Shown piece after piece: positions 2 through 62,424 of a stretch of DNA of 64,000 bases. Source of the DNA: Alphaproteobacteria bacterium (lineage in GTDB: Bacteria; Pseudomonadota; Alphaproteobacteria; RF32; CAG-239); assembly GCA_028706255.1 (NCBI GenBank), contig JAQWBS010000001.1, positions 23,617 through 87,616 on the forward strand. The letters run 5' to 3'. The stretch's first letter is position 1. Each line of letters starts with the position of its first letter. The notes beneath the pieces are model-generated. The model did not search any database, was not told the origin of the DNA, and saw nothing but the letters and a program-made list of their open reading frames with translations. The position numbers and the translations under genes are program-made.

Positions 2-1444
2 AAGAAGTCATATTTCATCTTTTTGGGAGCTTTTTTACTTTTTTATTCAAGCTTCATATTAACTAATAATGCCTTCGCTGGCGTTTATTTTATTACTAAA
101 CCCCAAGGAAACAATGATGGAGTCAGTAATAAACCCTGTCAATTGATGGGATATTTTTATAATAGTTCAAATTGTGGAGAGGGAAAATCTCTCTTTCAAA
201 AATGCCCCAATGGAAATACTTATAAGTTTTGTAAATGCGACCTTTCTCTTTATCCTTATACTGTCTCAAACTGTACAGAAACAGGCAAAGTTCTCGGAGG
301 AAAAGTCTGTGACAACACCTATTACGAAACTTGTAAATGTGAAGACAAATATCAATATGACACAACAAACTGTTCTTCACCTAAAACTCTAAGTGGCAAT
401 TCTTGTGGTGGAAAATATGAAAAATGCACGTGTCCTTCCACTTATTCTCAAACTTGTAGCGGAAATCTAATTGGGGTTGGAACAAGTTGTGATGGGAAAT
501 ATCAATCTTGTAAATGTAATAGTAATTTTCAAAAATGTGACAATGGCGGAACGTCTGGTGCTACCTCATGTTATGACTCTGAAGGAACGAAATATTCCAA
601 TTGTAAACAAATAAACTGTAGCGACGGAGGATATGTCTCTTCTGAACCTTATAATCAAAATTGCACCTATGTTTCATATAACGGAATAGATTGTTATAAA
701 AATTGTAAAGATAAAACCTGCTCTGATGGCGGATACCTTACTGCAGTTCCTGCCAATCAAACCTGTTCAACTGTTTCATATTTTGGACTAACTTGTTATC
801 GTAATTGTAAAAATATGAGCTGTTCAGAAGGGGGATATCTATCTTCCGCTCCTTCTAATCAAAAATGTACTTCCTTCACTTACAATGGCACAACTTGTTA
901 TAAAGACTGTGTAAACAAGAATTGTACAGAAGCTGGATATTTGGCCGCAGTTCCAACTGAACAAAACTGCAAGTCAATTTCTTATAATGGATTAACTTGC
1001 TATCAAAATTGTACAAATAAGAGCTGTGCTGAGGGAGGATATCTAGATGCAGCACCAAGTAATGACCATAAATGTAACTCGACCAGTTATGCAGGAAAAA
1101 CTTGCTACAAAGATTGTCAGTATAAAACCTGTGAAGATTATGCAAATACTTATGAATATGAACCTTATGGCGTGGTTTGTATGGGTCCAAATATCGTCCA
1201 AATAGCCAGTGGAAAACATTGCTACCAAAACTGTACAGATTATTGGAGAGAACCATGCACCGTAAGTAGTGACTGTAAAGATTTAAGTGCATCATATCCT
1301 AACAATTACCTACAAACTTGCTGGAATGGTTCTTGTAGATGTATGGAAGGAATCAGTTGGACATGCCTTAATCCTTGGAATGCGAGTAAAAACCCTTGGG
1401 CGCTAAATGCTGAAGAGAGATATAAAAATATCTATGGAGACTAA
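2..1444 (+). CDS. Secreted cysteine-rich modular repeat protein (true start probably just upstream of window)
   Basis: The ORF at 23-1444 stays open in frame back to nt 2, and KKSYFIFLGAFLLFYSSFILTNNAFA looks like a signal peptide. The mature part has ~5 N-terminal modules (C-x9-12-C-x6-7-C-x-C) followed by 6 tandem 34-aa modules of form C-[SE]-[DE]-G-G-Y-x9-N-Q-x-C-x9-10-C-Y-x-[ND]-C. I recognise no enzymatic motif. Confidence 0.6.
   Translation, partial: KKSYFIFLGAFLLFYSSFILTNNAFAGVYFITKPQGNNDGVSNKPCQLMGYFYNSSNCGEGKSLFQKCPNGNTYKFCKCDLSLYPYTVSNCTETGKVLGGKVCDNTYYETCKCEDKYQYDTTNCSSPKTLSGNSCGGKYEKCTCPSTYSQTCSGNLIGVGTSCDGKYQSCKCNSNFQKCDNGGTSGATSCYDSEGTKYSNCKQINCSDGGYVSSEPYNQNCTYVSYNGIDCYKNCKDKTCSDGGYLTAVPANQTCSTVSYFGLTCYRNCKNMSCSEGGYLSSAPSNQKCTSFTYNGTTCYKDCVNKNCTEAGYLAAVPTEQNCKSISYNGLTCYQNCTNKSCAEGGYLDAAPSNDHKCNSTSYAGKTCYKDCQYKTCEDYANTYEYEPYGVVCMGPNIVQIASGKHCYQNCTDYWREPCTVSSDCKDLSASYPNNYLQTCWNGSCRCMEGISWTCLNPWNASKNPWALNAEERYKNIYGD
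617..1234 (+). repeat. Six tandem ~102-nt (34-aa) coding repeats of the Cys-rich module (sixth copy degenerate)
   Basis: The protein-level periodicity CSDGGYVSSEPYNQNCTYVSYNGIDCYKNCKDKT / CSDGGYLTAVPANQTCSTVSYFGLTCYRNCKNMS / CSEGGYLSSAPSNQKCTSFTYNGTTCYKDCVNKN / CTEAGYLAAVPTEQNCKSISYNGLTCYQNCTNKS / CAEGGYLDAAPSNDHKCNSTSYAGKTCYKDCQYKT is visible in the translation. The DNA copies have diverged. Confidence 0.6.
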
Positions 1445-1542: not shown

Positions 1543-1612
1543 ACTATTGACTAAACCTTAGAAAATCAATAGTATCTGGTAAAACATAAACATATTATTG
1601 CAAGGGAAAAAA

Positions 1613-2494
1613 ATGAATTTTACGGAAATGGGTTTAAGCGAAAAAACCATCAAAGCAATTAAAGAATTTGGCATTAGAAAACCAACAACTGTGCAAACAG
1701 ATGTCATTCCTTCAATTCTACAAGGCAAAGATGTTTTTACCATCGCCCCACAAAAATGTGGCAAAACCACCTCATATGTTTTCCCTCTCATTGACATCAT
1801 CAGCAAACACGAAAGACAAAACATTTTGATTATCACACCATCTTCAGAAGATTCTGTGACCATTTCAGATCGTTTTGCTGTGTTTAATAAATATCATGAA
1901 ATCAATGAAGCAACCATCACTGAAGGCGATGAAGACATTGACAATGAAGCTAATGTCATTATTGGTTCTCCAGACCTTTTATTGGAACTCATTGAAGAAA
2001 GCAAAGTTGATTTATCAAACATCAATATTTTGGTTGTTGATGACATCAACCTAATCAAAAAACACAAGCAACTTGAAAACTTGGAAAAGATTCTCGACAT
2101 TTTACCAAGTGAAAAACAAAACATTGTTTACACAAATCGCCGTTCAAAAGAAACACAAAGCATTCTTGATAAAATTTTGAAAGCGCCAGAAGAAATTAAA
2201 ATCGACAAGGCAAAAGAACAAGAAGCAGAGATTGCTGAACAAAACATTGAGCAAAAAGCAGACTCAGAACCTGTTGAAGCAAAACAAGAAGAGACACGAG
2301 CTCCAAGAAGAGAAAGAAATAACAACAGAGAAAGACAAGAAAACAAAGACCGCCAAAGACAAAACAATAACAACAATGGCAAAGTCAACAATTTTGACCA
2401 TGAAGCTTTGCACCTTGCCAAAAAGTTCAATGCTTTTTCTGGCAGAGCGCCAAAATTCATTTTGAACAAAGGCATTCTTGTTAGAGATAACTAA
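1613..2494 (+). CDS. Degenerate DEAD-box helicase N-terminal (RecA-like domain 1) protein with a basic R/N/Q-rich tail; lacks helicase C-terminal domain
   Basis: There is a Q-motif-like TTVQ, a motif I-like APQKCGKT (compare AQTGSGKT), a motif Ia-like ITPSSED, and VVDDIN where DEAD would be. No motifs III-VI are present. It ends in a RAPRRERNNNRERQENKDRQRQNNNNN tail. The ATG at 1613 has an AAGGGA Shine-Dalgarno sequence; the tracked start at 1598 is TTG. Confidence 0.6.
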   Translation: MNFTEMGLSEKTIKAIKEFGIRKPTTVQTDVIPSILQGKDVFTIAPQKCGKTTSYVFPLIDIISKHERQNILIITPSSEDSVTISDRFAVFNKYHEINEATITEGDEDIDNEANVIIGSPDLLLELIEESKVDLSNINILVVDDINLIKKHKQLENLEKILDILPSEKQNIVYTNRRSKETQSILDKILKAPEEIKIDKAKEQEAEIAEQNIEQKADSEPVEAKQEETRAPRRERNNNRERQENKDRQRQNNNNNGKVNNFDHEALHLAKKFNAFSGRAPKFILNKGILVRDN

Positions 2495-2517
2495 GAAAAC
2501 CAAATAAAATAAAAAAC

Positions 2518-2546
2518 CCGAAGAATTAAATCTTCGGATTTTTTTT
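2518..2546. terminator. Bidirectional rho-independent terminator (CCGAAGA-loop-TCTTCGG)
   Basis: A 7-bp stem is flanked by an A-run upstream and a T-run downstream. The stop codon of the minus-strand gene 2526-2921 lies in the loop. Confidence 0.6.
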
Positions 2547-2921
2547 GAGCATCTGAAAAGGAACGAAAGCCTTTTCACCATGTTCTTGAAAAACAAGAAC
2601 ATAATCTGCTCTCAATGTAATTTTTTGAAAAACGGGTTTCTTAATCAGCCTCATTCCTCGAGAAATACCATAGAAACCAGATTTACTTATCACAATATTA
2701 TGTTCTTTATCAATTTTTTGAATGAGAACATAATTTCTAAAACGAGCTTTCAAAATCTTCTGATAGCTTTTGCGACCAAGCCAATAGAAAAAGCTCACAA
2801 AACCCCATAAAAACAGGACCACGCCTGAAAAGAGGAACCCAAGAAAAAGAATAAAATTCCAAGACAACGAATTTAACGAATCAAGCTCTGCCTGAGACAA
2901 AGCAATTTCATTTTTTTCCAT
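2526..2921 (-). CDS. Small membrane protein (two N-terminal TM helices, possible bacterial PH-like C-terminal domain)
   Basis: 131-aa ORF with the hydrophobic stretches WNFILFLGFLFSGVVLFLWGFVSFFYWL. It has its own terminator. The family call is uncertain. Confidence 0.5.
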   Translation of the reverse strand: MEKNEIALSQAELDSLNSLSWNFILFLGFLFSGVVLFLWGFVSFFYWLGRKSYQKILKARFRNYVLIQKIDKEHNIVISKSGFYGISRGMRLIKKPVFQKITLRADYVLVFQEHGEKAFVPFQMLKKNPKI

Positions 2922-2982
2922 AATTAAAGTTTTTTAAATTAAACGAATTTTGGTTTCTTAAAATTTTTAAGACAGAACAACT

Positions 2983-3078
2983 CTAAAAAAATGTTCTTAT
3001 AATGAGAACAGAGTTCACGAGAGAGTTTGACATAGAAGCAATTATTTCAGGAATTTTATCTCTGACAAGTTTTTCCAT
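2983..3078 (-). CDS. Candidate small ORF (31 aa, MEKLVRDKIPEIIASMSNSLVNSVLIIRTFF)
   Basis: It is not in the ORF track because it is under 60 aa. A perfect AAGGAG sits 8 nt upstream of the ATG. It lies 60 nt upstream of gene 2526-2921. Confidence 0.25.
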   Translation of the reverse strand: MEKLVRDKIPEIIASMSNSLVNSVLIIRTFF

Positions 3079-3157
3079 TTTCAACTCCTTTCTCTAAAAA
3101 AACTTCTATAAGTTTTAAACAAAATTCATCAATTAGCAAGCTCTTAGTTTTAAACCC

Positions 3158-3186
3158 AAAAAAGCGAACCGATTTCTCGATTCGCT
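3158..3186 (-). terminator. Rho-independent terminator of gene 3204-3902 (AGCGAA CCGATTTCTCGAT TCGCT plus U-run on the minus strand)
   Basis: A hairpin is immediately followed by A6 on the plus strand, which is U6 on the minus strand. Its core CGAACCGATTTCTCGATTCG is identical to the rplQ terminator at 3978-4008. Confidence 0.55.
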
Positions 3187-3203
3187 TTGAAGATAATTAA
3201 CAG

Positions 3204-3902
3204 CTAAGCTTTGTTATGTTTCTCGATAAAAGCAATAACAAGCTCCTGATTAGGAAATTTCTTTGCAGACAAAGAATAGATATCTCCTGCAGATTTCCAA
3301 TTTACAGAGCAATCTTTATACTCAAAACCAAGTTTCTCAATTAAGTCATAAAACGCATTGAAATAATTAGGTCTATTAGCTTTATATTGCTTACGCGCTT
3401 GCAACTGTAAACTTGAAACCAAATCACCAACAAGCGTATAACCCATCTCAGAAAGCCAATTAAAATGGCGAGAAGCAAAAGTGGGAATAAATGTCAGAGG
3501 AATTAATAGCCCTTCATTTATCTCCGACTTTCTAATGTCAAAAACCTTACCCTGCCAAAACAACTCAAAAGCTTTCTCCACACTAATAAACGGTGGAAAA
3601 TATTTTTGGGAAATCTCCATATGGTTATCGGGTAGCCAATCAACATGCTCAAAAGAATGACTAAAAGTTAACTCAAATTTTTTGAGTATTTCCTTAAGTT
3701 CTTTCAAACTTTTTTCACCGATGTTTCTAAACTTTAAAACATCTTCTTCGGAATACATCAATACTTCACCTAAATATGGACAATTCAAGTATCGTAAAAA
3801 ATTCAGGGTTCTTTGAGAAAGTTTTAGTTGCTCAATGGGGACGAAGTAACCAATCTTGCCTTCAAGCAAGGCTTTTTCTTCTGATAAAATCTCTTTTTTC
3901 AT
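3204..3902 (-). CDS. Stand-alone protein with two RNA polymerase alpha-subunit C-terminal-domain (alpha-CTD, HhH)-like domains
   Basis: LKLSQRTLNFLRYLNCPYLGEVLMYSEEDVLKFRNIGEKSLKELKEILKKF aligns at about 40% identity with this genome's own RpoA CTD ([51 protein letters not shown]). A second, weaker copy is NWLSEMGYTLVGDLVSS...LIEKLG. Confidence 0.55.
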   Translation of the reverse strand: MKKEILSEEKALLEGKIGYFVPIEQLKLSQRTLNFLRYLNCPYLGEVLMYSEEDVLKFRNIGEKSLKELKEILKKFELTFSHSFEHVDWLPDNHMEISQKYFPPFISVEKAFELFWQGKVFDIRKSEINEGLLIPLTFIPTFASRHFNWLSEMGYTLVGDLVSSLQLQARKQYKANRPNYFNAFYDLIEKLGFEYKDCSVNWKSAGDIYSLSAKKFPNQELVIAFIEKHNKA

Positions 3903-3977
3903 ATAATTTTATTTTAATAATACATAAATCATAGTAAATGAGATGGCAAATTATCACACTTAACAAAACCTGTCTAC

Positions 3978-4008
3978 ACAAAAAAACGAACCGATTTCTC
4001 GATTCGTT
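3978..4008 (-). terminator. Rho-independent terminator ending the alpha operon after rplQ
   Basis: AACGAA CCGATTTCTCGAT TCGTT hairpin followed by U7 on the minus strand. It is a near-identical copy of the hairpin at 3158-3186. Confidence 0.6.
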
Positions 4009-4034
4009 TCTTTTATATAAAATGTTCTAAAGAA

Positions 4035-4472
4035 CTATTCTGCTTTTGCAGCTTCCGCAGCAGCAACTTTTTCAGCAGCAACTCTAGCCAAGTCTTCAGC
4101 ACCTTTGGCAGCAACATCTCTGTCAACCAATTCAATGATTGCCATATCAGCAGCATCGCCATATCTAAAACCAGCTTTAAGAACACGAGTATAACCACCG
4201 TTACGGTCTTTATATCTTTCACCTAATGTAGAGAAAAGCTTAGACACAACTTCTTTATTACGAAGAAATGAATTTGCTCTTCTGCGACTTGCGAGGTCAC
4301 CTTTTTTTGCCAAAGTGATCATATTGTCAGCGAAAGTTCTGAGTTCTTTTGCTCTTTGCAAAGTAATTTTAATTTGTTCATGGTTCAACAAAGCAGCTGT
4401 CAAGTTTGAGAACAATGCTCTTCTTTGGCTTGTTGTCATGCTGAATTTTCTATGTTTCATTCCGTGTCTCAT
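4035..4472 (-). CDS. rplQ: 50S ribosomal protein L17
   Basis: [10 protein letters not shown]...[27 protein letters not shown] matches L17, with an Ala-rich C-terminal tail. The ATG at 4472 has an AAGGA Shine-Dalgarno sequence. Confidence 0.9.
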
Positions 4473-4612
4473 CATTTTTTCCTTTTCTCTAATGCTTTGC
4501 ATGCAAAGCGGATAATACAGACCGATACTACCCTAAAACACAAAGATATATATCGGCAAATTAAAGGTTAAATACAAAATTTAAATCTAACCTAATTTCT
4601 TAAAATTTTAAT

Positions 4613-4696
4613 AGAGGGCTATGCTACAAAGATATTTTTGAGTGAGGTGTAGAAAAACTACACGAAAGAAAAAAATATCAAGTATGATAACCCTCT
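4613..4696 (-). repeat. Copy A of an ~85-nt imperfect-palindromic intergenic element (rpoA|rplQ spacer)
   Basis: It shares the core ...TTTTTGAgtGAgGTGTAG-aaaaa-CTACACGAaaGAAAAAAA..AAGTATGAtAaCC with copies at 9421-9506 and 21788-21875. The outer stem is AGAGGG/CCCTCT. It begins 9 nt after the rpoA stop. Confidence 0.6.
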
Positions 4697-4705
4697 TGTA
4701 AAATT

Positions 4706-5713
4706 CTAGAAGTGTTCGTCAACGCGACGAATCAAATCTTCAATATTTTCAGGTGGCCAACCAACAACTTCCATGCCGAGGTGGATACCCATTTTTGTAA
4801 GAACTTCTTTGATTTCATTCAAAGATTTTCTACCAAAGTTTGGTGTTCTGAGCATTTCTGCTTCTGTTTTTTGAACCAAATCACCAATATAAACAATGTT
4901 ATCATTCTTCAAGCAATTTGCAGAACGAACAGAAAGTTCAAGCTCTTCAACTTTTTTAAGAAGATTTCTGTTAAATGGAAGTTCTTCTTTTTCTGCTTTT
5001 GTTTCAACTTCAGGTTCATCAAAGTTAATGAAAGGCTTAAGTTGATCTTGCAAAATTCTTGCTGAATATGCAATCGCATCTTCAGGCGTGATAACACCAT
5101 TTGTTTCAATTACGAGTGTGAGTTTGTCATAGTCAGTCACTTGACCAACACGAGTATTCTCAACTTTGTAAGAAACTTTTTTAACTGGAGAATAAATTGC
5201 ATCAACTGCAATCACCCCAATTGGTGCATCAGCGGCTTTGTTTTGATATGCAGGAACATAGCCTTTTCCGGTTCCGACAGTAAATTCAACATTAATTTTT
5301 GCGCCAGCGTCCAATGTGCAAATGAAATGATTAGGATTTTTGATTTCAACATCATGTCCTGTTTGAATCATTGCAGCGGTAACTTCGCATGGACCTTCTG
5401 CTTTAAGGCTCATTGTTTTTGTGCCTTCGCCTTCAACGGCAACAGCCAAACCTTTAATGTTTAAAATAATGTCTGTAACATCTTCTTTAACACCTGGGAT
5501 TACAGTGAACTCATGCAAAACACCGTCAATTTTGACAGCTGTTACAGCGCCACCTTGCAAAGAAGAAAGTAAAACTCTTCTCAATGCATTACCCAAAGTT
5601 AGACCAAAACCTCTCTCAAGAGGCTCGACTACTATTTTAGCTCTGCTTGCACTTTCGTTAACAACGTCTAAATTAGTAGGTTTAATAAGTTCTTGCCAAT
5701 TCTTTTGAATCAC
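4706..5713 (-). CDS. rpoA: DNA-directed RNA polymerase subunit alpha
   Basis: Full-length alpha subunit with NTD and CTD ([20 protein letters not shown]), in its alpha-operon position. Confidence 0.95.
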
Positions 5714-5815
5714 CGGTATGTCCTCTTTATTTTTATATTATGTGCACATAAAATTTCATATTTCAGAAATCAAAAGACGGCGAGGCCTTGAGAGCCTCAC
5801 TATCTAAAAACTCGA

Positions 5816-6205
5816 CTAGACTCTACGTCTCTTCTTCATACGACAACCATTGTGAGGAATAGGTGTAACATCACGAATAGCTGTGATTGTGAAACCTATT
5901 GCTTGCAATGCTCTAATCGCAGACTCACGACCAGATCCAGGTCCTTTAACTTCAACTTCTAAAGTTTTCATACCATGCTCTTGAGCTTTTTTACCAGCTT
6001 CTTCAGCAGAAATTTGTGCAGCATAAGGGGTAGATTTTCTAGAACCCTTAAAGCCTTGAGCACCTGCTGTACACCAAGCAACTGTGTTGCCTTGAGCATC
6101 AGTTATTGTTATTCTTGTGTTGTTGAAAGTAGAATTTACGTGAGCAATCCCAGCCGTAATATTCTTTTTCTCTTTCTTTTTAACACGTTGTGCTACTTTT
6201 GCCAT
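5816..6205 (-). CDS. rpsK: 30S ribosomal protein S11
   Basis: [23 protein letters not shown]...[13 protein letters not shown] is a typical S11. Confidence 0.95.
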
Positions 6206-61484: not shown

Positions 61485-61519
61485 AAAAAAGAGCAAGAAT
61501 TTCTTGCTCTTTTTTTTAT
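61485..61519. terminator. Bidirectional rho-independent terminator (AGAGCAAG-loop-CTTGCTCT + T8)
   Basis: An 8-bp stem flanked by A5 and T8. Confidence 0.7.
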
Positions 61520-61528
61520 TCCTAAAAA

Positions 61529-61852
61529 CTACTTTTCTTCTCTTTTTTTGATTTCCTCGTTCACCTCATCCAAGTAATAACCCGCCATGGTTTTTGAATA
61601 TTTTGGACTAGTCAAACTGTTTCCGAGGACTGGAACATAAGGAACATGAGACGAAAAATATTCCTTTAATTCTTTTAGTTCGTCATCTGTTGCTGCACTT
61701 GGATTCTCCTTAAAATGATGATAAAGATTATCTATCCGAGTTTGTTTAGGAGAAGATGTGTAAATTTTTTTAATGATAATCGGCAATAGATATACAAAGA
61801 AAAAAATAACAACAACAGCAACAATAAAAACAACAATAATAAATGTTTTCAT
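61529..61852 (-). CDS. Small N-terminally anchored protein, paralog 1
   Basis: An N-terminal TM segment (FIIVVFIVAVVVIFFFVYLLPIII) and a soluble part containing PSAATDDELKELKEYFSS. Confidence 0.5.
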   Translation of the reverse strand: MKTFIIVVFIVAVVVIFFFVYLLPIIIKKIYTSSPKQTRIDNLYHHFKENPSAATDDELKELKEYFSSHVPYVPVLGNSLTSPKYSKTMAGYYLDEVNEEIKKREEK

Positions 61853-61978
61853 AACTTTGTTTTTTAATAGTTAGTAAATAATTTTGAATATGTAAAAAGG
61901 CTAGCATTAAAATCAAAATTTTGCAACTAAAAACAAAAAAGGAACTCATAAGAGCTCCTTTTTATTTGGAAAACAGGT

Positions 61979-62314
61979 TTATGCCTGTTGATGCCTTTTT
62001 GAAATTTCTTCCAAAATCTTGCTCGCTTTATAGCCTAAAAACGTCTCCAAATTAACAACCGTTCTCCCACATTCAGAATCAACCGTAGAAGTAAGAAAAG
62101 CTGAATTAGAAAAATAGTCGAACATATTAGAAAGTTCCTTATCCGACACATCTGATGCATTACTTTCAAAACGAGAAAAAAGAGTGTTCATTCTCAGTTC
62201 TTTGATATTTAAATATCTGAAATAAACCTCAAAAAAATCTCTAATTCTCGAAATGTTGATAAGCAAAAGAGGCAAGCCAACTAAAACAAAAACAAGTAAT
62301 AATGTCTTTCCCAT
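61979..62314 (-). CDS. Small N-terminally anchored protein, paralog 2
   Basis: An N-terminal TM segment (LLLVFVLVGLPLLLINI) and a soluble part with ASDVSDKELSNMFDYFSNS, homologous to the segment in 61529-61852. Confidence 0.5.
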   Translation of the reverse strand: MGKTLLLVFVLVGLPLLLINISRIRDFFEVYFRYLNIKELRMNTLFSRFESNASDVSDKELSNMFDYFSNSAFLTSTVDSECGRTVVNLETFLGYKASKILEEISKRHQQA

Positions 62315-62386
62315 GGCAAAATAATTTTAAGGTGAATAAATAATTTGTGTATCCCTTAAGTTTGCCACAAATATTTTTGTTTGCAA

Positions 62387-62424
62387 CAAAAAAAGAGATG
62401 GCAATTTCTTGCCATCTCTTTTTC
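62387..62424. terminator. Bidirectional rho-independent terminator after rpoC (AGAGATGGCAA-tttc-TTGCCATCTCT)
   Basis: A perfect 11-bp stem flanked by A7 and T5. Confidence 0.75.

What the first reader, a model, noticed from the sequence alone, without database searches (positions are those of the whole stretch)
3158..4008. Gene 3204-3902 is flanked by direct repeats of the same terminator hairpin
The terminators at 3158-3186 and 3978-4008 share an identical 26-nt core (AAAAAA-N-CGAACCGATTTCTCGATTCG). So the alpha-CTD paralog is bracketed by about 30-nt direct repeats. This is the pattern expected if a segment ending at the rplQ terminator was duplicated or inserted there, taking a copy of the terminator with it.
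Basis: seen in the sequence. Interest (0 to 1): 0.5.

Follow-up and report, generated by a model that had tools for sequence, protein, structure and literature searches.

The report
Duplicated rplQ terminator brackets accessory gene
Two copies of the transcription-stop hairpin that ends the ribosomal-protein gene rplQ lie on either side of a small accessory gene, and close relatives without that gene have only one hairpin, so the pair marks a site of gene gain and loss and is not a new kind of element.

Summary
A 20-nt core occurs exactly twice in the 64-kb window, at 3165-3184 and 3987-4006, inside a 34-nt direct repeat that is 91% identical. On the minus (coding) strand both copies fold as intrinsic terminators. 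T1 follows rplQ. T2 follows a 232-aa gene with an N-terminal RNA polymerase alpha-CTD domain. About 13 other terminators in the window have unrelated stems, so this is not a generic motif.

T1 is the ancestral rplQ terminator: the same stem follows rplQ across a wide alphaproteobacterial clade. One relative (L008, gene 60% identical) has the same T1-gene-T2 layout. Three closer relatives of L008 (L009/L010, L015/L016, L139) have rplQ, a single hairpin, then the same downstream gene X.

L009's single hairpin is 34/34 identical to L008's T2. In another lineage (L012, L017) an unrelated gene sits in the same slot, also between two hairpin copies, and L012's copies share a derived loop.

Best reading: paralogous terminator copies bracket a variable single-gene slot and recombine, which homogenises them or deletes the gene. 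How the duplication arose is unresolved. This is a neat but modest case of genome micro-evolution.

The parts
4706..5713 (-). rpoA, a full RNA polymerase alpha subunit with NTD, insert domain and CTD
   Evidence: Pfam RNA_pol_L, RNA_pol_A_bac and RNA_pol_A_CTD.
4035..4472 (-). rplQ (ribosomal protein L17), last gene of the alpha operon. The mechanical ORF call extends to 4502.
   Evidence: Pfam Ribosomal_L17, E=1.5e-38. A 145-aa form is identical to NCBI MAG protein P0003.
3976..4013 (-). T1, the rplQ intrinsic terminator. RNA: GAAACGAAUCGAGAAAUCGGUUCGUUUU followed by UUUGUG. It has the derived A-U closing pair.
   Evidence: Orthologous hairpins follow rplQ in 10+ relatives.
3911..3938 (-). 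Promoter-like site TTTACT-16-TAAAAT just upstream of the accessory gene. The AT-rich block GTATTATTAAAA is also present upstream of the L008 ortholog. This is inferred, not shown.
   Evidence: Consensus scan. The window/L008 nucleotide alignment starts about 36 nt upstream of the ATG (sequences).
3204..3902 (-). Accessory ('cargo') gene, 232 aa. It has an N-terminal alpha-CTD domain (residues 20-74) followed by a W-x-P-D-N...KYFP motif. The C-terminal half is uncharacterised and may be a degenerate second module. NCBI accession MDD4555721.1.
   Evidence: The second alpha-CTD module is not supported by hhalign. The AF2 model is unusable, pLDDT 41.
3155..3190 (-). T2, a paralogous copy of the rplQ terminator that ends the accessory gene. 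RNA: AAAGCGAAUCGAGAAAUCGGUUCGCUUU followed by UUUGGG. It has the ancestral-type G-C closing pair.
2983..3099 (-). Truncated remnant of gene X (PRA-PH/MazG-like NTP pyrophosphohydrolase). A 31-aa ORF (2983-3078) starts MEKLVRDKIPEII. X is the gene that follows the last hairpin in L008, L009, L015 and L139.
   Evidence: blastn of window 3036-3099 against the start of X in L015, L009 and L139 gives 78-87% identity. The ORF is called in L001. Pfam PRA-PH on L015 X is just below cut-off (21.0 bits against 21.3, E=4.5e-4).
2526..2921 (-). 131-aa hypothetical protein, probably a membrane protein. It is the next conserved neighbour and the ortholog of the L009 136-aa gene (about 70% nucleotide identity).

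Best explanation
T1 (3976-4013) is the ancestral Rho-independent terminator of the rpoA-rplQ transcript. T2 (3155-3190) is a paralogous copy of it that terminates a separately transcribed accessory gene lying directly downstream.

The position immediately after the rplQ terminator is a variable single-gene slot in this alphaproteobacterial clade. Whatever gene sits there is bracketed by two copies of the lineage's own rplQ terminator. Because the copies are 30-45-nt direct repeats, they recombine with each other. Non-crossover exchange homogenises them (concerted evolution). Crossover or slippage deletes 'gene plus one copy' and leaves an intact rplQ terminator. This lets the accessory gene come and go without disturbing termination of an essential operon.

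Shown here: the repeat itself, its terminator-like fold, orthology of T1, the presence/absence polymorphism, and exchange of hairpin types between the T1 and T2 positions.

Inferred: that both hairpins actually terminate transcription, that the empty sites arose by deletion and not by never having been filled, and how the first duplication arose. That could have been an insertion that duplicated the target terminator, for example single-crossover integration of a circle carrying a terminator copy. It could also have been a landing between pre-existing tandem terminators.
For: - Repeat and fold.
- Not generic: about 13 other terminators in the window have different stems and no other similar pair exists. 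Gut-lineage contigs of 215-484 kb match the strict pattern once, after rplQ.
- T1 orthology and RNA-level constraint: in an alignment of 14 hairpins, 98.8% of cells are paired, 5 pairs show double-sided changes, and the U.G wobble is replaced by C-G (L015) or U-A (L012).
- Same layout in L008, whose gene is 60% identical.
- Empty sites with one hairpin followed by the same gene X in L009/L010, L015/L016 and L139. The window has a remnant of X after T2.
- rplQ NJ tree: (win,(L009,(L015,(L139,L008)))), with split supports of 100%, 94% and 99.6%.
- L009's single hairpin is 34/34 identical to L008's T2' (loop GAUUAUUU). L015 and L139 have T1'-type loops. So both hairpin types of an L008-like ancestor are sorted among the empty sites.
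- Same slot, different gene: L012 and L017 carry orthologous WG-repeat genes (51% aa) between two hairpin copies. L012's T1 and T2 share a derived loop UUUUAAU and about 15 nt of upstream flank, whereas the T1 loops of L013 and L017 are UGAAAG and UGAAAA.
- Window T2 is 1 mismatch from L008 T1' but has a completely different loop from its positional ortholog L008 T2'.
- L140 has two tandem copies of its own rplQ terminator with no gene between them.
Against: - Parsimony on the rplQ tree does not favour loss: 3 losses against 2 gains or transfers. That tree rests on 440 nt of one gene.
- L009's hairpin has the T2'-type loop but a T1-type 3' flank (U-run followed by GUU). A single T1xT2 crossover does not explain this, so a conversion patch must also be invoked.
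- The spacers between the single hairpin and X in L139, L015 and L009 cannot be aligned with each other or with L008, and show no relic of the gene.
- The hairpin is short and under selection, so some identity (for example the 34/34 match) could persist without exchange.
- The rest of the source genome (488-kb contig and beyond) could not be scanned for further copies.
- There are no transcription data.
- In L011 the two hairpins flanking a different alpha-CTD gene resemble each other only weakly.
Confidence: 0.7

Rival explanations
1. Segmental duplication of the operon's 3' end. A piece running from the rpoA CTD through rplQ to the terminator was duplicated in tandem. The rpoA-CTD copy became the accessory gene, the rplQ copy was lost, and T2 is the terminator of the duplicated segment. 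This is one of the two readings the first reader offered.
For: - The accessory gene is an alpha-CTD protein sitting next to rpoA-rplQ, and keeps the W-P-x-[DE]-N motif that follows the CTD in the resident RpoA.
- L011 also has an alpha-CTD-containing gene in the slot, 37% identical over 82 aa including the segment before the domain.
Against: - Identity to the resident RpoA CTD is only 38% aa. There is no nucleotide similarity outside the hairpin and no trace of rplQ in any frame.
- Several stand-alone or multi-alpha-CTD proteins score higher, for example P0241 at 53% identity.
- The hairpins are 91% identical while the coding parts are saturated, so they cannot be passive relics of the same event.
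- An unrelated WG-repeat gene is bracketed identically in L012 and L017.
Confidence: 0.12
2. Pre-existing tandem (double) terminator. The highly expressed operon first acquired two tandem copies of its terminator. Genes that later landed between them were tolerated because they were insulated on both sides. In this view the duplication is not caused by the insertion.
For: - L140 shows this state: two hairpins with the same stem 25 nt apart after rplQ and no gene between them.
- It explains why unrelated genes are all bracketed.
Against: - Only one such case was seen, and it could equally be what remains after an imprecise loss of a gene.
- All three empty-site genomes in the window's own clade have a single hairpin.
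Confidence: 0.15
3. The hairpin is a site for a trans-acting site-specific or structure-specific recombinase (attC-, dif- or att-like). The slot would be a one-cassette array into which genes are captured and from which they are excised.
For: - Different cargo in the same slot, each bounded by the hairpin.
- Hairpin types are exchanged between positions.
- Repeat boundaries coincide with the hairpin.
- Unrelated genomes show mobile-type cargo (HigB/HTH toxin-antitoxin, GIY-YIG) bracketed by terminator or tRNA-end repeats.
Against: - No recombinase gene lies in or next to the cassette.
- Loop length varies from 4 to 8 nt and loop sequence is free. The stem has no extrahelical bases, no GTTRRRY boxes and no dif consensus.
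- The hairpin differs between lineages (L011, L014/L140, L018), and each lineage duplicates its own version. This fits homology-driven events better than recognition by a dedicated enzyme.
Confidence: 0.08
4. Generic or dispersed hairpin. The sequence is a common terminator motif or a REP-like repeat of this genome, and its two occurrences around the gene are incidental.
For: The same stem turns up as a terminator in many unrelated organisms in a metagenome-wide scan (118 loci, mostly unrelated contexts). So the sequence is easily reached by convergence.
Against: - Within the 64-kb window there are only these two copies, even at 3 mismatches.
- Other terminators differ.
- Relatives' loci (5-10 kb each) have copies only at this slot.
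- Long gut-lineage contigs have one copy.
- The loop, which is free to vary, is identical in T1 and T2.
Confidence: 0.04

Closest known systems
Rho-independent (intrinsic) terminators, including tandem double terminators of highly expressed operons such as E. coli rrnB T1-T2 (own knowledge)
   Same: A-tract, GC-containing stem-loop and U-tract, lying 15-25 nt after a stop codon on the coding strand. Base pairs are kept through compensatory changes.
   Different: Here the two copies are sequence paralogs of one another, separated by a whole gene, and they behave as recombining direct repeats. Termination itself was not measured.
Minimal mobile elements of Neisseria, described in Neisseria genome papers such as PMC1538595 and PMC3082526 (one search lists them; the definition here is from my own knowledge)
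   Same: A fixed chromosomal slot between conserved genes holds different cargo genes, or none, in related genomes. No mobility genes are present.
   Different: MMEs are thought to be exchanged by homologous recombination in the flanking genes after transformation, and are not defined by duplicated terminators. Here the cassette boundaries are the terminator copies. Competence of these organisms is unknown.
Phage 'morons': an extra gene with its own promoter and terminator inserted between two genes (own knowledge)
   Same: A single ORF with a promoter-like site upstream and a terminator downstream, inserted between two conserved units.
   Different: The context is chromosomal, next to a ribosomal operon. 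There is no match to phage protein families or viral contigs. The terminator is a copy of the neighbour's, not foreign.
Integron gene cassettes (ORF plus attC hairpin) and attC clusters lacking an integrase (own knowledge)
   Same: An ORF followed by a hairpin-forming repeat. Hairpin copies bound the cassette. Cargo varies, and toxin-antitoxin cargo was seen in an analogous unrelated locus (L075).
   Different: The hairpin is 28 nt and perfectly paired. It has no R/L boxes, no extrahelical bases and no integrase, and it carries a U-tract.
Deletion and gene conversion between short direct repeats, by RecA-dependent or slippage routes (own knowledge)
   Same: Direct repeats of 30-45 nt flank exactly the segment that is missing from relatives. 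Repeat variants are sorted among the empty sites, and there is concerted evolution in L012.
   Different: Nothing conceptually different. The particular feature is that the repeat is a functional terminator, so deletion restores a working operon end.

Membership tests
Intrinsic (Rho-independent) terminator | Stable GC-containing stem-loop in the transcript | tested here: met
   Minus-strand RNA folds at -17.6 (T2) and -21.1 (T1) kcal/mol, z -4.3 and -5.9. The stem has 12 pairs with 4-5 G-C and a loop of 4.
Intrinsic (Rho-independent) terminator | U-tract directly 3' of the stem | tested here: met
   Seven T after T1 and six T after T2 on the coding strand.
Intrinsic (Rho-independent) terminator | Position just downstream of a stop codon, in the same orientation as the gene | tested here: met
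   The T1 stem starts about 24 nt after the rplQ stop. The T2 stem starts about 15 nt after the stop of ORF 3204-3902.
Intrinsic (Rho-independent) terminator | Base pairing maintained in evolution | tested here: met
   Across 14 hairpins, 98.8% of cells are paired and 5 of 12 pairs show double-sided changes. Shuffled and slid controls are lower.
Intrinsic (Rho-independent) terminator | RNA 3' ends are produced at the site | not testable with these tools
   No transcriptome data. Term-seq is needed.
REP-like or dispersed palindromic repeat family | Tens to hundreds of copies at unrelated intergenic loci of one genome | tested here: not met
   There are two copies in 64 kb at up to 3 mismatches. 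Related contigs of 215-484 kb have one copy each. The whole source genome was not available.
Integron attC site | 55-140-nt imperfect palindrome with R''/L'' and L'/R' boxes (GTTRRRY), extrahelical bases, and an associated integrase or array | tested here: not met
   The hairpin is 28 nt and perfectly paired, with no such boxes. No integrase lies among the neighbouring genes.
Xer/dif-type site | Two 11-nt arms with a conserved XerD arm and a central region of fixed length | tested here: not met
   In the window the geometry happens to be 11-6-11. But loop length varies from 4 to 8 nt among orthologs and paralogs, and the arms lack the dif consensus, which I recalled from memory.
Transposon or IS with target-site duplication | Transposase gene and terminal inverted repeats inside the direct repeats | tested here: not met
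   The only ORF between the repeats is the alpha-CTD protein. No transposase domain was found. Inverted repeats at the ends of the insert are weak or absent.
RNA polymerase alpha subunit C-terminal domain (Pfam PF03118), for the bracketed gene | Match to the alpha-CTD profile above the curated cut-off | tested here: met
   62.7 bits against a cut-off of 23.8, residues 20-74. PDB alpha-CTD chains match down to E=7.5e-9.
Bona fide RNA polymerase alpha subunit (RpoA) | N-terminal dimerisation and insert domains (RNA_pol_L, RNA_pol_A_bac) | tested here: not met
   These domains are absent from the 232-aa protein and present in the neighbouring rpoA.
Minimal-mobile-element-type variable slot | Conserved flanking genes with alternative cargo, or none, in related genomes and no mobility genes | tested here: met
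   The left flank is always rplQ. The slot holds alpha-CTD cargo (window, L008), a different alpha-CTD protein (L011), a WG-repeat protein (L012, L017), a 139-aa protein (L037) or nothing (L009, L015, L139). The right flank is X in the window's clade and His_Phos_1 further out.
Phage moron | Location in a prophage or phage genome | tested here: not met
   Ribosomal operon context. No PHROG match and no relative in viral contigs.

The most novel reading that the evidence does not exclude
Intrinsic terminators may act as portable homology sites for single-gene cassettes. A gene plus one terminator copy can loop out by recombination between the two copies. It could then re-enter any genome that carries a similar terminator by the reverse reaction, re-creating the bracket. 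Genes could thus be gained, swapped and lost next to essential operons without a dedicated recombinase. The rplQ slot of this clade would be one long-lived example. The HigB/HTH pair in L075, the BirA-BioY pair in L102 and possibly the GIY-YIG gene in L125 would be examples of the same process in unrelated bacteria.
Probability: 0.2. Interest if true: 0.65.

Novelty: new variant of a known kind. Interest (0 to 1): 0.42.

Why it matters
The case shows at nucleotide resolution how an accessory gene can sit directly behind an essential, highly expressed operon without harm. It is insulated by a copy of the operon's own terminator, and it can be removed cleanly because the two copies are direct repeats. 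The data also document concerted evolution of a 30-nt regulatory element. They identify a recurrent variable slot downstream of rplQ in a little-known group of uncultured Alphaproteobacteria. They flag a rare family of roughly 230-aa proteins that begin with a free RNA polymerase alpha-CTD domain, which could compete with or mimic the polymerase's own CTD. If terminator-bracketed cassettes turn out to be common (three unrelated examples surfaced by accident here), they would be a simple route of gene turnover that needs no recombinase and that annotation pipelines ignore.

Tried and rejected
- Exact 20-mer scan of GTDB representative genomes: 6 single hits in unrelated taxa. The source genome is not among the representatives, so a genome-wide copy count was not possible, and this used the only genome scan.
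- Metagenome scan with the stem pattern: 118 loci, most of them convergent terminators in unrelated organisms. It was useful only after filtering by L17 context.
- Rfam, sensitive mode, window 2400-6000: nothing near significance.
- A second alpha-CTD module in the C-terminal half: BLAST E=0.029 against RpoA, but hhalign probability is 0.2%. I leave it as a suggestion based on a repeated W...[KY][KY]FP motif.
- AlphaFold2 with a 2-sequence alignment: pLDDT 41, not usable, so no fold search was run.
- PHROGs and viral contigs for the cargo: no match.
- Search for a relic of rplQ or of rpoA nucleotide sequence inside the cargo: none.
- Search for relics of the cargo in the empty-site spacers: none.
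- Literature searches for natural terminator duplications flanking genes: nothing relevant in the held library.
- Biopython get_support gave meaningless bootstrap values on the re-rooted tree. I replaced it with an explicit split count.
- My first survey script for similar terminator pairs was too strict and missed the window pair. The corrected version is.
- dif-like, attC-like, IS and REP readings were considered and rejected on their defining features (see the membership tests).
Full report
1. THE OBSERVATION

All relevant genes lie on the minus strand: rpoA (4706-5713), rplQ (4035-4472) and a 232-aa ORF (3204-3902). The 20-nt core CGAACCGATTTCTCGATTCG occurs at 3165-3184 and 3987-4006. It occurs nowhere else in the 64-kb window even with 3 mismatches, and none is expected by chance. 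A gapped stem pattern gives the same two sites. The repeat extends to 34 nt (3154-3187 and 3976-4009, 91% identical, 822 nt apart).

Read on the coding strand, both copies are textbook intrinsic terminators. Each has an A-tract, a 12-pair stem with a 4-nt loop, and a run of 6-7 U. Folding energies are -21.1 kcal/mol for T1 (after rplQ) and -17.6 kcal/mol for T2 (after the ORF), far below shuffled controls. On the opposite strand the conserved U.G wobble becomes an A.C mismatch, so the structure is strand-specific. Two of the three differences between the copies form a compensatory pair: A-U in T1 and G-C in T2.

The same contig was assembled independently (L001).

2. THE GENE BETWEEN THE COPIES

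- It has one clear RNA polymerase alpha-CTD domain at residues 20-74 (Pfam 62.7 bits; PDB alpha-CTD chains). It lacks the alpha N-terminal domains.
- It is 38% identical to the CTD of the rpoA gene two genes upstream. The two share no nucleotide similarity, and no trace of rplQ is present in any frame.
- A search of 1.84 billion representatives finds 1,742 alpha-CTD-containing proteins. Only a handful are related over the full length (P0151, P0237). Some stand-alone alpha-CTD proteins, for example P0241 at 53%, are closer than the resident RpoA.
- In the 5.8-billion-protein collection the family has two members at high identity: the window protein (NCBI MDD4555721.1, from an Alphaproteobacteria MAG) and P0002 at 60%.
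- The C-terminal half repeats a W...[KY][KY]FP motif and aligns weakly to alpha-CTD. hhalign does not support a second domain, and the AF2 model is unusable.
- A promoter-like site (TTTACT-16-TAAAAT, 3938-3911) and a conserved AT-rich block lie in the 75-nt spacer between T1 and the start codon. The gene is therefore probably an independent transcription unit. This is an inference.

3. T1 IS THE ANCESTRAL rplQ TERMINATOR

I fetched contigs encoding the closest L17 proteins. A hairpin with the stem GCGAAUCG/CGGUUCGC follows rplQ in the window, L008, L009/L010, L139, L013 and L017. Derivatives of it follow rplQ in L015/L016 and L012. A metagenome scan shows the same stem directly after rplQ in about 20 contigs of a 48%-GC human-gut alphaproteobacterial lineage whose L17 is 81% identical.

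In an alignment of 14 such hairpins, 98.8% of cells pair and 5 of 12 pairs show changes on both sides. The loop is free in sequence and varies in length from 4 to 8 nt. More distant relatives (L011, L014/L140, L018) have other stems.

4. THE HAIRPIN IS NOT A GENERIC MOTIF

- About 13 other terminator-like hairpins in the window have unrelated stems. T1/T2 is the only similar pair.
- In each relative the hairpin occurs only at this slot within the 2-10 kb available.
- Gut-lineage contigs of 215-484 kb match the strict pattern once.
- The many other metagenome hits lie in unrelated organisms and contexts, for example after coaX in a Firmicute. They are best read as convergence in a very large search space.
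The caveat is that the rest of the source genome could not be scanned.

5. PRESENCE AND ABSENCE IN RELATIVES

An rplQ tree gives (window,(L009,(L015,(L139,L008)))), with split supports of 100%, 94% and 99.6%. The layouts are:

- L008: rplQ, T1', a 235-aa ortholog of the gene (60% aa, 68% nt), T2', then gene X (a PRA-PH/MazG-like protein).
- L009/L010, L015/L016 and L139: rplQ, a single hairpin, then X.
- Window: a truncated X remnant right after T2 (2983-3099).

6. THE TWO COPIES EXCHANGE SEQUENCE

(a) L009's single hairpin is 34/34 identical to L008's T2' and shares its distinctive 8-nt loop GAUUAUUU. L015 and L139 carry T1'-type loops instead. Both hairpin types present in L008 are thus distributed among the empty sites. 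This is most simply explained if the empty sites descend from a genome that carried both copies.

(b) Window T2 is one mismatch from L008 T1', yet its loop is unrelated to that of its positional ortholog L008 T2'.

(c) In a second subclade, L012 and L017 carry an unrelated WG-repeat gene in the same slot (orthologs, 51% aa), again between two hairpin copies. L012's T1 and T2 share a derived loop (UUUUAAU) plus about 15 nt of upstream flank. The T1 loops of L013 and L017 are UGAAAG and UGAAAA. This is concerted evolution.

Further variants of the slot are:
- L011, a different alpha-CTD-containing gene between two only weakly similar hairpins;
- L037, a 139-aa gene between a new terminator and the canonical hairpin;
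- L140, two tandem copies of its own terminator with no gene between them.

7. INTERPRETATION

The best-supported account is that T2 is a paralogous copy of the rplQ terminator, and that the position behind this terminator is a long-lived variable slot. The bracketing copies insulate the resident gene. Being direct repeats, they also recombine: conversion homogenises them and crossover deletes the gene, leaving one functional terminator.

What remains open is the first step. It may have been an insertion that duplicated the terminator, for example single-crossover integration of a circle carrying a copy. It may have been a landing between pre-existing tandem terminators, as in L140. It may have been an ancient duplication of the operon's 3' end.

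The polarity of individual events is also open. On the rplQ tree, three losses compete with two gains. L009's hairpin has a T2'-type loop but a T1-type 3' flank, which requires a conversion patch in addition. The spacers behind the single hairpins cannot be aligned even between genomes 96-97% identical in rplQ. That itself points to rapid turnover at this spot.

Readings based on a dedicated recombinase (attC, dif, IS, REP) fail their defining features (see the membership tests).

8. COMPARISON WITH KNOWN SYSTEMS AND NOVELTY

Each ingredient is known: intrinsic terminators, deletion and conversion between direct repeats, variable slots without mobility genes (the Neisseria minimal mobile elements), and moron-like single-gene units. 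The less familiar part is the combination. A functional terminator serves as the repeated boundary of a cassette, and this is conserved with different cargo across a clade.

Full-text searches for natural terminator duplications flanking genes found nothing relevant. The held library is incomplete, so this is weak evidence of novelty.

While filtering the metagenome hits I came across three unrelated cases of the same pattern:
- a HigB/HTH toxin-antitoxin pair between two copies of an upstream gene's terminator (L075);
- a GIY-YIG gene between 53-nt repeats made of a tRNA 3' end plus terminator (L125);
- BirA-BioY between two similar terminators (L102).

The first two were selected through the query hairpin. 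L102 entered the data set through the query hairpin at another position, but its similar terminator pair has a different sequence, so it is one unselected case in about 0.96 Mb. This hints that the pattern may be general but does not establish it.

9. VERDICT

It needs correction on age, on the origin of the gene and on the role of later exchange between the copies. I rate it a new variant of a known kind and of moderate interest (0.42). The most novel reading not excluded is terminators acting as recombinase-free cassette sites, with probability about 0.2.

Noticed in passing
window 2983-3099 (-): A 31-aa ORF (MEKLVRDKIPEII...) is the truncated start of gene X, which is PRA-PH/MazG-like. About 1.75 kb that is present in L009 (the rest of X, a P-loop kinase and a His_Phos_1 gene) is missing in the window between this remnant and the 131-aa gene.
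   Followed up: partly
L035 5640-5666 and about 20 other gut-metagenome loci (L021, L022, L026, L028, L047, L059, L068 ...): The rplQ terminator stem GCGAAUCG/CGGUUCGC, including its U.G wobble, is conserved between the 37%-GC window lineage and a 48%-GC human-gut alphaproteobacterial lineage (L17 81% identical). This is unusually deep sequence conservation for a terminator.
   Followed up: partly
L140 620-700: Directly after rplQ lie two tandem hairpins with the same stem (GAGCGGU.../...ACCGCUC), 25 nt apart, with no gene between them. This is either a natural double terminator or what is left after loss of a gene.
   Followed up: partly
L037 2727-3580 (also L041, L098, L103): In this lineage a different terminator follows rplQ. 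The canonical GCGAAUCG hairpin sits about 820 nt further downstream, behind a 139-aa gene with no Pfam match. It looks as if the gene had been inserted between rplQ and its original terminator.
   Followed up: partly
L075 376-1225 (hairpin-sense orientation used): In an unrelated 37%-GC organism, a HigB-toxin/HTH-antitoxin pair is flanked by 33-nt direct repeats. The repeats are the terminator of the upstream aminoacyl-tRNA-synthetase-like gene (anticodon-binding domain).
   Followed up: partly
L125 360-860 (same site in L114 5050-5133; hairpin-sense orientation used): A 98-aa GIY-YIG nuclease gene is flanked by about 53-nt direct repeats made of the last roughly 20 nt of a tRNA gene plus its terminator. 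This is an att-like duplication around a single selfish-type gene with no integrase.
   Followed up: partly
L102 (reverse strand) 1669-3900: BirA and BioY genes lie between two similar terminators, GCCGGCGGCC... and GCCGGCAGCC..., which differ by a compensatory G-C to A-U change. This was the only such pair with a sequence unrelated to the query hairpin in a survey of about 0.96 Mb.
   Followed up: no
window 61487-62422: Downstream of rpoC are two tandem paralogous small membrane-protein genes (61529-61852 and 61979-62314, both minus strand; 26% identical, E=6e-9), each with its own terminator. The two outer terminators share AAAAAGAG..CAAGAAAUU..CUCUUUUUU. This may be a second case of a gene-plus-terminator duplication.
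   Followed up: partly
window 3204-3902 (-), protein residues 88-104 and 201-217: The accessory protein repeats a motif W-x(8-12)-[KY]-[KY]-F-P after each half. The same motifs occur in distant relatives of 226-263 aa (P0151, P0237). This suggests a small, uncharacterised family built from an alpha-CTD module.
   Followed up: partly
window 1598-2494 (+): A 298-aa protein matches only the DEAD domain, followed by a low-complexity, charged tail, with no Helicase_C match. It is conserved in L009 (83% nt). It may be a half-size DEAD-box protein.
   Followed up: no
window 23-1444 (+): A 473-aa cysteine-rich protein with many repeats of a CxxGGY...C...Y.G..CY..C unit. It was not examined.
   Followed up: no
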